Of a stretch of DNA of 59,393 nucleotides, positions 52,688-55,600 are shown piece after piece. The DNA comes from a plasmid. The position numbers were made by a program. The DNA is taken from sequence record NC_011409.1. One strand, 5' to 3'. Within the stretch, counting starts at the first letter, position 1; the number at the start of each line of letters is the position of its first letter.

Positions 52688-55600
52688 TTAAAACTTTTTA
52701 GACTACCCATGCAGTATAGTCCCAAAACTTTAACAAAGCAAGTTTTTAGACAGTCCAAAAACATAAATCAAAGTTTCTGCACTAAATCATAGCATTTTAC
52801 CTCTCGTATTCACTGACAATCTGTTTTTATTTTTAAAAGACTTTCTAAATAAAACTACTTACTAGAAAATCGGATGTTTAGAATTGGTTAAATTTTCAAA
52901 TACTGCCCCAAATATGAAACGCTATCTACTCTATATCACGTGTATTATTGCAACTCGAAGCCTTGAATCTATAGCTAATATAAGAGACCCACACGAAGGA
53001 GGGATTTGTCACGTCGAAGCAGAATACTTTTATCCAGGAGTATGGGAAAAATATGGCGAAAAGGAGTTGATTTGTAACTACTGGAAATTTTTAGGTGATG
53101 AAGACCAAAGAACATTAGAATCAGAATTAAACGAAGATACAACTGAATCAGAGAATGAATCTAGCGATTATGATAGCCTGGATGAAATGTATAGTGGATA
53201 AACCTATCCATTATGAACTAATTAGTTTAAAATAAAGACTGTTTATATATTAATAACAATTTGATTTTATTATATTTATATGAGAATCCAATAAAAACTA
53301 TATCTAGATATTGGGGTCGTATAAAGATAAATATACCGTATAAAAATTTATACGGGAGTTTTATCAATATGCAAATACAGAGATTTTTATCATTAATCAT
53401 GACCGTTTTATCAAACTTCAATTTAGATCATTTATCTACCTTTGTAACTGAATTAACCTATCTTTCAATTGGTATTGGATTTATGTTCTTATGTATGAGT
53501 CTATTTTTATGGGTGTACAAAAAAAAATGAAATATTGGTCCAAAATGCCGAGTAGATGGGTTATTGACGGTGGTCTAAAAAAATTTAGATACTCATCTAA
53601 TAACCAAAATCAAATGAATGCAGCAAATATTGCTGCATTAATGACATTTTTAATTATCGTAAGTAAGGCACAAAAAGATGAATTTAATGATGAGTTAATA
53701 ACAAATTTGACTTATAAAGAATTTTCAGAGAGTCTAGGCATTAGTAGGCAATCTATAAGCATGGGGTTAAAAGTATTGGAATCCAATAATATTATTTCAA
53801 TTAAGAGAATTGGAAGAACAAACCAATATATAGTGAATCAAAATGAAGATAAAACGTGGTGTAAAATCCCAATTCATGAGCTAGAAGGCATATTTTGTAG
53901 AAGCTTCTCGTTGCGTTCACAAATTGAATTGTATGCACTAAAATTATTTATTTATTTTTCTGCAATAAGAGATAAAAAGTTTAAGTATTCAATGGCATCT
54001 TATCTCAAGATAACTGAAAAAACAGGAATTCCAAAAGGGTTTATAAAAAAGACATTATCATTCATGCTGGTAAATGAACTACTCAGCAGAGTTGATAGAG
54101 GATACGATAACGTTAATGGAGAGAAGGTTAATTTACCTAACCAATATTACCTAAAAAATTATAATGAACTGATATATTCTAATAGATAAAATGATGGGGA
54201 GCTAAGCTCCCCATTGTTTCATTATTTTTCTAGCCGCTGCCTAGAACTCCCTCTACTTGCTCATTATAAGCTGGCCGAAGTTGCACTCTGCGGGTCCCTG
54301 CTATGTTTTATGACCGAGGGGACATTTGCCCTGTCAATCTAATCTCTTAGATGTGCTTAATGTTAAGTATTTACTAATTAAATGTCAATCTAATTTTAAC
54401 TCTTATGATTAACTCTTATGATTAACTCTTATGATTAACTCTTATGATTAACTCTTATGATTAACTCTTATGATTAACTCTTATGATTAACTCTTATGAT
54501 TAACTCTTATGATTAACTCTTATGATTAATTACAATGGCTAATCGTTACTTAAAACTCATTTAATCGGTGCAAATAATGTAACTGCTGAGATCATTTCAA
54601 CTTGTTTGCAATATTGTCTAATCACTGCTGCCGCGCTTTCAAATGTTGTTCCTGAAGAAGATATATCGTCAACGAGTAATACATGTTTCGCATCAGCTGG
54701 TAATTTTACATGATCCCACAAAAAATATGTAAGTAGCATCTATTCTTCGGTGCTATGTCTTTTATTGATAATCCCCCTTCGCTTCTCTTTAATGCAGTAA
54801 TTAAGGACTGTTTTTTATCTGGGGGAATTGTGTTATCACTTATAACATCCTCAATCAATGTTTTAGGCGTTTTTTTCCTGAGAAAATTATCAATAATATT
54901 TATGTTAAATTTTTTCTGTAATAAACAAGCTAAATCACGCCCAATACTATGTTTAGATGGCATGAGTATGATCACATCAAATGGTTGTTCGATATGTTCT
55001 TCAAATGGATATTCATCAATCAGCTTTTTAGCGTATTCATATACAGCATTGATAGTTTCAATATCTGTTGTTAACCCTTCAGCTCCTTTCATGGCATACA
55101 ACATAGGGCAATTATCACCGATAGGTCTGCATTTCCCTCTTCGTTCTTTATAACGCCTAATTATAGAGTATATAGTTATTTCTCCATTATGTTTTAACAT
55201 TGTTTCTTTGCTAGGGTAAGAAGCTATAACAACCCGGTTATCTTTAATTTCAAACTTCATATTTTTCTTCTTTTTTTGTAATTCTTATTATTGTAGCAAA
55301 AAAAACAAAAGGTTAAAGGAATCCCTAACGGGATTAAGGGTAATGTAATAAAGGTAACCTTTCCAAGGGAAAGGTCTTACCTGAAAAGGCCAAAAGGCTT
55401 TCAAAATGGCTTTAATATTTATCTCCGATTTAGAATTATTTATTTATTGAGATCGATGCATAAATCAATATTCTTTTACAAAAAAGGTTCTGAGTTATGC
55501 TTTCATCTATTTTTCATAAAATCAGAGGGAAAAAACAAGATTCCCTTAATATCACATCCTCTCTAAAAAATCTCAATTCATCAACATTCAAAGTGGATGA

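What the first reader, a model, noticed from the sequence alone, without database searches (positions are those of the whole stretch)
55300..55496. Inverted-repeat cluster upstream of the MOBH relaxase: candidate oriT
AATCCCtaacGGGATT and aggtaaCCTTTCC-aa-GGGAAAGGtcttacct lie within 200 bp of the traI start in an otherwise AT-rich leader. The oriT of this ICE family is not obvious from annotation, and relaxases often nick near such repeats.
Basis: inference. Interest (0 to 1): 0.55.

Follow-up and report, generated by a model that had tools for sequence, protein, structure and literature searches.

The report
Conserved transfer-origin candidate upstream of traI
The two small inverted repeats upstream of the relaxase gene are real. 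[quoted passage not shown]

Summary
The window matches ICEHin1056 of Haemophilus influenzae: 59,393 bp, carrying TEM, Tet(B), CatA, GI-type T4SS genes and a MobH relaxase.

Both inverted repeats exist, at 55320-55335 and 55352-55382. Alone they are unremarkable, because 35 sites in the window fold at least as stably.

The real signal is comparative:
- A 53-nt core (55349-55401) is single-copy in the element. It includes the right arm of the second repeat plus GAAAAGGCCAAAAGGC.
- It is about 90% conserved in Pasteurellaceae ICEs whose TraI is only 53-66% identical.
- It is still recognisable in GC-rich ICEclc-type elements with 37-40% TraI identity.
- In 77 of 80 metagenome contigs holding the motif, a traI homologue follows on the same strand. 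The other three contigs end too early to tell.
- The hairpin exists only in Pasteurellaceae. Two species have replaced its stem sequence but kept the pairing.
- In those two species, cargo genes separate the block from traI by 1.8-2.6 kb. This argues against a mere traI promoter.

Best reading (about 0.72): this is the relaxase-proximal oriT, the counterpart of ICEclc oriT1. The nick site and strand are unknown. The ICEHin1056 literature already calls this area a "putative oriT", so novelty is modest.

The parts
55296..55413 (+). Whole candidate oriT region. The + strand is purine-rich and carries 8 AAGG words, two hairpins and a tail of three AAAAGGC-like words.
   Evidence: AAGG density is 8 per 125 nt, the highest in the window (mean 0.5). 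As ssDNA, 55300-55420 folds with z = -3.5 on the + strand and -3.6 on the - strand. The region aligns with relatives.
55320..55335 (.). IR1: small hairpin/palindrome AATCCC-taac-GGGATT.
   Evidence: It is marginal alone (z = -2.0). In relatives the same place holds AGCCC-tagc-GGGCT (Aggregatibacter), GCCC-taac-GGGC plus ATCCCC-taag-GGGGAT (Mannheimia) and AAAGCCC-ctaa-GGGCTTT (Pasteurella, Actinobacillus, Bisgaardia). The CCC/GGG core is kept and the outer pairs change together. It is absent in A. porcinus, A. pleuropneumoniae and the GC-rich relatives.
55352..55382 (.). IR2: 31-nt hairpin. Left arm 55352-55364, loop 55365-55367, right arm 55368-55382 with a 2-nt bulge at 55375-55376.
   Evidence: -9.6 kcal/mol, z = -3.9. 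The hairpin is kept in all Pasteurellaceae loci (z -3 to -6). The stem sequence is replaced but still paired in A. porcinus (CCGTTTCTC/GAGAAACGG) and A. pleuropneumoniae (CCGCTCCAC/GTGGAGCGG). Among the close relatives there is only one compensatory pair. The GC-rich relatives have no hairpin.
55349..55401 (+). Family-wide conserved core. Its nearly invariant part is 55364-55398, CAAGGGAAAGGTCTTACCTGAAAAGGCCAAAAGGC. This is the proposed relaxase recognition and nick region.
   Evidence: It is the only hit of model R1 in the window (57.8 bits, E = 6e-17). Alignment A5 of 20 elements has 76% mean column identity, although TraI is only 37-40% identical between the extremes. In 77 of 80 metagenome loci with the motif, traI follows on the same strand, with a median gap of 32 bp.
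55447..55474 (+). Promoter-like site TTGAGA-16-TATTCT, downstream of the core and 23 bp before the traI ATG. It is a possible traI promoter and a separate module from the core.
   Evidence: This is a consensus scan only, and such sites are not above chance in the region (6 found, 5.8 expected). The stretch 55428-55495 is conserved in Rodentibacter L001, which lacks the core at that place.
55287..55316 (-). Promoter-like site TTAACC-18-AATAAT facing the divergent 184-aa ORF.
   Evidence: Consensus scan only.
55497..57404 (+). traI: MOBH (MobH/TraI_2 plus TraI_2_C) relaxase. It is the protein expected to act on the site.
   Evidence: Pfam TraI_2 1.4e-86 and TraI_2_C 6.7e-34. NCBIfam MobH 6.7e-94 and ICE_TraI_Pfluor 4.3e-90. 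Knock-out of gene 1056.62, in a construct named TraI, abolishes ICEHin1056 conjugation, and complementation restores it (PMC3025324).

Best explanation
The stretch 55296-55413, with its core at 55349-55401, is the relaxase-proximal origin of transfer (oriT) of ICEHin1056. It is the counterpart of oriT1 of ICEclc.

Proposed mechanism (inferred, not shown):
1. After excision, the MOBH/HD-domain relaxase TraI, encoded immediately downstream, recognises the conserved block CAAGGGAAAGGTCTTACCT-GAAAAGGCCAAAAGGC.
2. In Pasteurellaceae elements the adjoining 31-nt hairpin helps, extruded or formed on the melted strand.
3. TraI cuts one strand there and pilots it through the GI-type T4SS.
4. As reported for ICEclc oriT1, the same site probably also primes TraI-dependent rolling-circle replication of the excised element.
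5. The upstream AAGG array and the small CCC-TAAN-GGG hairpin(s) are likely accessory binding or melting elements.

The nicked strand is not determined. I weakly favour the minus strand, with the cut inside the complement of GAAAAGGC just 5' of the hairpin. This follows the gonococcal genetic island (GGI) TraI, which cuts 3 nt 5' of its inverted repeat. In that case traI would enter the recipient last and the ardC side first.
For: Shown here:
- The core is single-copy in the element. It is also single-copy in the stretches examined from two plasmid-borne relatives.
- It is more conserved than the relaxase gene. A 52-nt stretch is about 90% identical in Pasteurella and Actinobacillus ICEs (TraI 57-59% aa). 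A 110-nt stretch is 83% identical in Aggregatibacter (TraI 66%). The 35-nt block survives in 60%-GC elements with TraI 37-40% identical.
- Linkage is strict and oriented: 77 of 80 metagenome loci with the motif have traI on the same strand downstream, and the other 3 contigs end within 600 bp. On plasmids the match lies 25-30 bp before annotated mobH.
- The flanking genes upstream differ between elements: a divergent ORF, a resolvase, or toxin-antitoxin genes. The block therefore travels with traI, not with a neighbour.
- In A. porcinus and A. pleuropneumoniae the block is 1.85 and 2.6 kb from traI, with cargo genes between. In Rodentibacter the traI-proximal promoter-like part is kept without the core. 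The core is thus a module separate from the traI promoter.
- The hairpin is retained, with whole-stem replacement, in Pasteurellaceae.

From the literature:
- A 'putative oriT of ICEHin1056' is placed just 3' of the accessory region that lies 5' of traI.
- traI is essential for transfer.
- ICEclc has two mapped oriTs on which TraI acts, and oriT1 matters for replication. oriT_ICEclc2 is the one 'far from the relaxase'.
- The GGI MOBH oriT is a 50-nt unit built around a 32-nt inverted repeat. Its structure matters rather than its sequence, and the nick is 3 nt 5' of it.
- MOBH2 relaxases seem not to need a MobI-like factor.
Against: - There is no functional data for this element: no mobilisation, deletion or nicking was tested.
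- I could not read Miyazaki & van der Meer 2011. That the ICEclc oriT1 fragment contains this very block is therefore an inference and from memory, not a sequence comparison.
- In the GC-rich relatives the block ends only about 32 bp before the traI start, a position also expected for a promoter or 5' leader.
- Those relatives have no significant hairpin (z -1.3 to +1), unlike the GGI paradigm.
- Formal covariation among the close relatives is weak: 1 compensatory pair, not above the shuffle controls.
- Hairpins this stable are common in the window (35 sites).
- Rodentibacter L001 shows no core in the 1.6 kb available upstream of traI.
Confidence: 0.72

Rival explanations
1. The block is only the promoter, operator or 5' leader that controls traI expression, bound by an ICE regulator. 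oriT lies elsewhere on the element.
For: - It is intergenic, directly upstream of traI and on the same strand.
- In GC-rich relatives it ends about 32 bp before the start codon.
- TAYCCT within the block resembles a -10 hexamer (sequence).
- Promoter-like hexamers flank it in the window.
- oriTs of the other MOBH clade (SXT, IncA/C) lie far from traI, next to mobI.
Against: - In A. porcinus and A. pleuropneumoniae it is separated from traI by 1.85-2.6 kb of cargo genes.
- In Rodentibacter the traI-proximal leader is kept without it.
- Distance to the ATG varies from 5 to 219 bp even when adjacent.
- It is single-copy. A regulator site of an ICE-wide regulon would be expected at several operons.
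- Near-invariance across genomes of 38% to 60% GC, while TraI drops below 40% identity, is more than promoters usually show.
- Promoter-like matches in the region are at chance level (6 found, 5.8 expected).
- Overlap of oriT with the relaxase promoter is common, so a regulatory role would not exclude oriT.
Confidence: 0.15
2. The block is a relaxosome-accessory or replication site, for example a TraI-dependent rolling-circle replication origin or a single-strand initiation site. The nick used for transfer would be made at another locus, such as the conserved repeat-plus-hairpin region upstream of ssb (7416-7519).
For: - ICEclc has two oriTs with different behaviour, and only oriT1 affects replication of the excised ICE.
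- Region 7416-7519 is also conserved in Rodentibacter, Aggregatibacter and Mannheimia ICEs.
- It has a hairpin with the same outer arms (AAGGTAA/TTACCTT) next to AAAAGGCC.
- It is the second AAGG-richest spot of the window.
Against: - The core model gives region 7485-7508 only about 4 bits (E about 3-4), so it is not a second copy.
- In ICEclc both oriTs support transfer with similar efficiency, so a replication role does not exclude transfer.
- Region 7416-7519 could equally be the regulated promoter of the ssb operon.
Confidence: 0.1
3. The inverted repeats are chance features of an AT-rich spacer, or a terminator or small-RNA hairpin, with no role in transfer.
For: - Thirty-five sites in the window fold as well as IR2.
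- IR1 is marginal (z = -2.0).
- The scan flags the inner IR2 stem as a weak terminator-like site on the minus strand.
Against: - Conservation is deep, oriented and traI-linked.
- No gene converges on the hairpin, and there is no proper T-tract.
- No Rfam family matches at E <= 1.
Confidence: 0.03

Closest known systems
oriT1 of ICEclc (Pseudomonas knackmussii B13; Miyazaki & van der Meer 2011)
   Same: - Same ICE family (MPF_G T4SS, MOBH2 TraI of the TIGR03760 class).
- Relaxase-proximal position.
- GC-rich elements with this relaxase class (MobH, TIGR03760/PFGI-1; ICEclc-like by that criterion) carry the same 35-nt block and AAGG/AAAGGC word array upstream of traI.
- TraI-dependent, and reported to serve replication as well.
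   Different: - ICEHin1056 and other Pasteurellaceae elements add a 31-nt hairpin and small CCC/GGG hairpins that the GC-rich relatives lack.
- The block lies 99 bp from the traI start here, against about 32 bp in the GC-rich relatives.
oriT of the gonococcal genetic island (MOBH prototype TraI; Heilers et al. 2019, PMC6736028)
   Same: - Same MOBH2 clade.
- That oriT also lies in a divergent-promoter intergenic region.
- Its minimal unit is about 50 nt, built on a 32-nt inverted repeat whose structure matters rather than its sequence. This compares with the 31-nt IR2, its stem replacements and a 53-nt conserved core here.
   Different: - GGI uses an F-like T4SS that secretes DNA.
- Its nick is mapped (3 nt 5' of the repeat), whereas here nothing is mapped.
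- Sequence similarity to the GGI oriT was not tested, because no sequence was held.
- The hairpin is absent in the GC-rich members of the present family.
oriT of SXT/R391 ICEs and IncA/C plasmids (MOBH1)
   Same: They use a relaxase of the same MOBH superfamily. They are AT-rich, with several short inverted and direct repeats overlapping a promoter.
   Different: Those oriTs lie next to mobI, up to about 40 kb from traI, and need MobI. Here the site abuts traI, and MOBH2 systems seem not to use MobI.
Classical MOBF/MOBP oriTs (F, R388, RP4)
   Same: They share an inverted repeat next to a conserved nick region, in a promoter-bearing intergenic spacer beside relaxosome genes.
   Different: Those relaxases are HUH enzymes that cut 8-12 nt 3' of the repeat. 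TraI here is an HD-domain enzyme with unrelated nick-region sequence.

Membership tests
Relaxase-proximal oriT of the ICEclc/ICEHin1056 family (ICEclc oriT1 type) | Lies beside the MOBH2 relaxase gene, upstream and in a fixed orientation. | tested here: met
   Core at 55349-55401, traI ATG at 55497. traI follows on the same strand in 77 of 80 metagenome loci and on plasmids.
Relaxase-proximal oriT of the ICEclc/ICEHin1056 family (ICEclc oriT1 type) | Sequence homologous to the region upstream of traI in ICEclc-type (GC-rich) elements. | tested here: met
   Alignments A3 and A5. Model R1 scores 47-62 bits on the plasmid-borne relatives L048, L049, L171 and L172 and 57.8 bits on the window.
Relaxase-proximal oriT of the ICEclc/ICEHin1056 family (ICEclc oriT1 type) | Matches the experimentally delimited ICEclc oriT1 fragment itself. 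| not testable with these tools
   The 2011 paper and its coordinates are not held. Only the statement that oriT_ICEclc2 is the relaxase-distal one was found.
Relaxase-proximal oriT of the ICEclc/ICEHin1056 family (ICEclc oriT1 type) | Sufficient in cis for mobilisation and nicked by the cognate TraI. | not testable with these tools
   Requires mating and nicking assays.
Relaxase-proximal oriT of the ICEclc/ICEHin1056 family (ICEclc oriT1 type) | One copy of the recognition sequence per element. | tested here: met
   Single R1 hit in the 59-kb window with filters off. Single hit in 50-kb stretches of two plasmid-borne relatives.
GGI-type MOBH oriT (hairpin-dependent) | A roughly 32-nt inverted repeat inside a roughly 50-nt minimal unit. 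| tested here: met
   IR2 is 31 nt and the conserved core is 53 nt.
GGI-type MOBH oriT (hairpin-dependent) | Hairpin structure conserved rather than stem sequence. | tested here: inconclusive
   Whole-stem replacements with pairing kept occur in A. porcinus and A. pleuropneumoniae (z = -4.3 and -6.2). However, there is only 1 compensatory pair among 8 close sequences, and the GC-rich relatives have no hairpin.
GGI-type MOBH oriT (hairpin-dependent) | Nick 3 nt 5' of the inverted repeat, with specific bases around it. | not testable with these tools
   Needs in vitro cleavage or primer extension.
MOBH1 oriT (SXT/R391, IncA/C) | Located next to mobI and distant from traI. | tested here: not met
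   The site abuts traI. The neighbouring ORFs have no family hit or are a winged-helix protein and transposon genes.
Intrinsic transcription terminator | GC-rich hairpin followed by a T-tract at the end of a transcription unit. | tested here: not met
   There is only a weak minus-strand match (ACCTTTATTA tail), and no gene reads into it.
Known structured RNA (Rfam) | Match to a curated covariance model. | tested here: not met
   No match at E <= 1 in 54500-56000, both strands.

The most novel reading that the evidence does not exclude
The 35-nt block CAAGGGGAAAGGYCYTAYCY-GAAAAGGCSAAAAGGC would be the universal nick and recognition sequence of MOBH2 relaxases of GI-type (MPF_G) ICEs, read essentially as sequence.

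The hairpin would then be a lineage-specific add-on. Pasteurellaceae elements would have created it by mutating the left flank to pair with the conserved right flank, and later swapped it wholesale at least twice.

A corollary is that ICEHin1056 may have a second, relaxase-distal transfer origin upstream of ssb (7416-7519), mirroring the dual oriT of ICEclc.
Probability: 0.3. Interest if true: 0.5.

Novelty: new member of a known kind. Interest (0 to 1): 0.35.

Why it matters
ICEHin1056-type elements spread ampicillin, tetracycline and chloramphenicol resistance in Haemophilus and other Pasteurellaceae, yet their oriT has only ever been called "putative".

- Pinning it to a 53-nt core gives a precise fragment for mobilisation and nicking assays.
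- It gives a sequence probe for annotating oriT in hundreds of ICEclc/PAGI-2/ICEHin1056-type islands, and for finding oriT-only hitchhiker islands.
- It offers a natural experiment, with and without the hairpin, on how the poorly understood HD-domain MOBH relaxases recognise their substrate.

This does not overturn anything: it extends what is known for ICEclc and the gonococcal island.

Tried and rejected
- **Inverted repeats as stand-alone evidence.** Rejected, because 35 equally stable hairpin sites exist in the window.
- **Formal covariation of IR2 among close Pasteurellaceae.** Only one compensatory pair, not above the shuffle controls. The structural argument rests on two whole-stem replacements instead.
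- **Region 7416-7519 as a second copy of the core.** Rejected as a homologue: about 4 bits with model R1. It shares only short words.
- **Terminator and known-RNA readings.** Not supported.
- **Promoter scan.** At chance level and uninformative.
- **Plasmid collection searches.** The window fragment found nothing in near mode, nor did the AT-rich core in distant mode. Only the GC-rich version found plasmid-borne relatives.
- **Search for an ICEclc-type oriT2 equivalent.** I fetched 50 kb next to mobH in two plasmid-borne relatives. One element is truncated and the other is interrupted by cargo, so the ssb region was not reached.
- **ICEclc oriT1 coordinates or sequence.** No useful supplements were held.
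- **Cluster look-up of the GC-rich TraI proteins.** It shows they are abundant Pseudomonas and Betaproteobacteria MobH relaxases of the TIGR03760 class, but it did not name ICEclc itself.
- **The genome-contig scan.** Relatives were fetched by exact-protein look-ups instead.
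Full report
**Identity of the window**

The window is 59,393 bp at about 38% GC. 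It carries the following:
- parA, dnaB, DUF2857, acaB-like, DUF3158, ssb and topoisomerase genes at the left;
- GI-type T4SS genes (TIGR03755, TIGR03756);
- Tet(B) with its Tn10 TetC repressor, CatA and IS elements;
- blaTEM with a Tn3-type resolvase, and ArdC;
- a MobH-family relaxase at 55497-57404 (Pfam TraI_2 and TraI_2_C; NCBIfam MobH and ICE_TraI_Pfluor);
- a small tyrosine recombinase after the relaxase.

Size and resistance set match the "59.3-kb ICEHin1056" of H. influenzae, which confers ampicillin, tetracycline and chloramphenicol resistance. The best protein relatives are from Haemophilus and other Pasteurellaceae.

**The observation**

- IR1, AATCCC-taac-GGGATT, lies at 55320-55335.
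- IR2, AGGTAACCTTTCC-aag-GGAAAGG-tc-TTACCT, lies at 55352-55382.
- Both sit in a 236-bp, 28.8%-GC spacer between a divergent 184-aa ORF and traI.

As single-stranded DNA, IR2 folds at -9.6 kcal/mol (z = -3.9) and IR1 at -4.5 kcal/mol (z = -2.0). However, 35 sites in the window fold at least as well as IR2. The repeats alone prove nothing. The locally unique feature is eight AAGG words in 125 nt on the + strand. This is the window maximum, against a mean of 0.5.

**Comparative evidence in Pasteurellaceae**

I fetched traI loci by exact-protein look-up and one genome scan.
- Upstream of traI, the H. influenzae relatives (TraI 78-80% identical) share the whole spacer at 96-99% identity.
- Aggregatibacter (TraI 66%) shares 110 nt at 83%.
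- Pasteurella, Actinobacillus and Bisgaardia (57-59%) share 51-52 nt at 86-90%.
- Mannheimia (53-55%) shares about 118 nt at 75%.

In each case the shared stretch centres on IR2 and the sequence to its right.

The upstream neighbour differs. It is a divergent ORF of 184 or 234 aa, two small ORFs, or a resolvase gene on the same strand only 97 bp away. The block therefore follows traI, not its other neighbour.

IR1 changes sequence but remains a small CCC-TAAN-GGG hairpin whose outer pairs change together. The variants are AATCCC/GGGATT, AGCCC/GGGCT, ATCCCC/GGGGAT and AAAGCCC/GGGCTTT.

**Comparative evidence in distant relatives**

I also examined GC-rich elements from Thauera, Zoogloea, Azoarcus, Achromobacter, Pseudomonas, Halopseudomonas and Burkholderiales.
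- Their TraI is only 37-40% identical to the window's. These proteins belong to large clusters of Pseudomonas and Betaproteobacteria MobH/TIGR03760 relaxases.
- They carry ...CAAGGGGAAAGGCCCTAYCY-GAAAAGGCSAAAAGGC... just upstream of traI.
- This aligns column for column with window 55364-55398.

A sequence-only model of the 58-nt core (R1, 20 sequences) gives these results:
- It hits the window once, at 55349-55401 (57.8 bits, E = 6e-17), with nothing else above 7 bits.
- It hits once next to mobH in two plasmid-borne relatives.
- It gives a weaker hit 1.2 kb upstream of traI in a Brenneria element.

A degenerate pattern of the block found 80 fetched metagenome loci. In 77 of them a TraI homologue starts on the same strand, at a median of 32 bp downstream (99 bp in the Haemophilus type). 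The remaining three contigs end within 600 bp. On annotated plasmids the match lies in unannotated DNA 25-30 bp before "mobH".

**Hairpin or sequence?**

The hairpin is a Pasteurellaceae feature.
- All Pasteurellaceae versions fold significantly (z -3 to -6).
- The GC-rich versions do not (z -1.3 to +1). In them, the position of the left arm is occupied by GGAATGGGGYGC.
- Among eight close Pasteurellaceae sequences, pairing is 97%. Only the outermost pair shows a compensatory change (A-T to G-C), and the shuffle controls are not exceeded.

Independent support for a selected stem comes from two species. Both have the same flanks (TAAGGGTAA ... CTTRCCY ... AAAAGGCNAAAAGGC), but these enclose different stems:
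- CCGTTTCTC-ttaa-GAGAAACGG in A. porcinus;
- CCGCTCCAC-tgaa-GTGGAGCGG in A. pleuropneumoniae (z = -4.3 and -6.2).

This agrees with the one biochemically studied MOBH relaxase, TraI of the gonococcal genetic island. Its minimal oriT is 50 nt built on a 32-nt inverted repeat. The structure of that repeat matters, not its sequence, and the nick is 3 nt 5' of it.

**Against a purely regulatory role**

- In A. porcinus and A. pleuropneumoniae the block is 1.85 and 2.6 kb upstream of traI. Cargo genes, including an AbiEi/AbiEii pair, lie in between.
- In Rodentibacter the traI-proximal leader, including the promoter-like TTGAGA-16-TATTCT at window 55447-55474, is conserved without the core.
- The core is single-copy. 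A regulon operator would be expected at several operons.
- No Rfam family matches. There is no credible terminator context.
- A dual role as oriT plus promoter or operator remains possible, and is common in conjugative systems.

**Literature**

- Juhas et al. [quoted passage not shown]
- In 2010 the oriT was still "putative", while a traI knock-out abolished transfer and complementation restored it.
- ICEclc has two experimentally identified oriTs acted on by TraI. oriT1, but not oriT2, is needed for replication of the excised element.
- A 2026 preprint lists oriT_ICEclc2 among oriTs located far from the relaxase, so oriT1 is the proximal one.
- From memory, not verified here: the 2011 abstract says the two oriTs share a similar repeat motif and are conserved in related islands.
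- MOBH2 relaxases appear not to need a MobI factor.

**Mechanism and what is inferred**

Shown here: a single-copy, oriented, traI-linked, deeply conserved DNA block, with a lineage-specific hairpin.

Inferred: TraI recognises and nicks it, and it also serves TraI-dependent replication.

The strand is open. The most conserved part lies 3' of IR2 on the + strand, which is 5' of the hairpin on the - strand. By analogy with GGI, this favours a minus-strand nick near 55385/55386. ArdC lies 2-5 kb upstream of traI in the Pasteurellaceae elements examined and always points toward the block. This fits a leading region on that side, but it is a weak argument.

**Verdict**

The oriT interpretation is supported computationally (confidence about 0.7) and was anticipated in the literature. 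The novelty is modest: a new member of a known kind. The useful additions are the precise 53-nt core, the family-wide consensus, and the finding that the hairpin is dispensable or replaceable across lineages.

Noticed in passing
window 7416-7519 (between the DUF3158 gene 6919-7407 and ssb 7654-8076): A second conserved non-coding module. It has three direct repeats of (A/T)GTTTGTRA spaced 22-24 bp apart, the 12-bp palindrome AAAAGGCCTTTT, and an 11-bp-stem hairpin AAGGTAAGGGG-acaag-CCCCTTACCTT. It is 81-91% conserved in Rodentibacter, Aggregatibacter and Mannheimia ICEs, and in Mannheimia it sits about 1 kb further from the DUF3158 gene. It shares the outer arms AAGGTAA/TTACCT and an adjacent AAAAGGCC with IR2, and it is the second AAGG-richest spot of the window. 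It is not a copy of the oriT core (about 4 bits). It could be a second oriT as in ICEclc, or the regulated ssb-operon promoter.
   Followed up: partly
window 5947-6142: About five tandem 36-bp iterons (GTACAAAAATTAACCACTGTAAAGGGGCTTTACAAA), each with a small TGTAAAG/CTTTACA inverted repeat. They lie directly upstream of an AcaB-family regulator gene (6164-6919).
   Followed up: partly
L169 1276-4000 (A. pleuropneumoniae) and L003 4050-6009 (A. porcinus): Cargo genes are inserted between the oriT-like block and traI. They are AbiEi/AbiEii and a DUF6685 gene in L169, and two unnamed ORFs in L003. The known accessory-gene hot spot therefore extends to both sides of the block.
   Followed up: partly
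window 49907-50890; L034, L040, L042, L044: An ArdC-type anti-restriction gene (ArdcN plus zincin domain) lies 2-5.5 kb upstream of traI on the same strand in the window and in several Pasteurellaceae ICEs. This would suit a leading region if the minus strand is transferred.
   Followed up: no
L038 3316-3903, L040 3315-3902 (also L002): In Pasteurella, Actinobacillus and Bisgaardia ICEs a 195-aa serine resolvase gene ends 97 bp before traI. The oriT-like block fills most of that gap, and the resolvase 3' end abuts the AAGG array.
   Followed up: no
L009, L011, L013, L016, L017, about 330 bp upstream of traI: A near-perfect palindrome GGTAAGGAAATTTCCTTAC(C/T) sits beside the start of a divergently transcribed gene in several GC-rich relatives. 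It looks like an operator and is unrelated to the oriT block.
   Followed up: no
L005-L018, about 80 bp upstream of the conserved block: GC-rich relatives carry a direct repeat of part of the block, GCCCTATAYCCAAAGGC, matching GCCCTAYCY-GAAAAGGC. Pasteurellaceae elements have small hairpins at the corresponding place.
   Followed up: no
window 15964-26530 and 50985-52621: The resistance cargo comprises Tet(B) with the Tn10 TetC repressor, CatA, IS5-, IS30- and IS4-family transposases, and TEM with a Tn3-type resolvase. This confirms the amp/tet/chlor phenotype described for ICEHin1056.
   Followed up: yes
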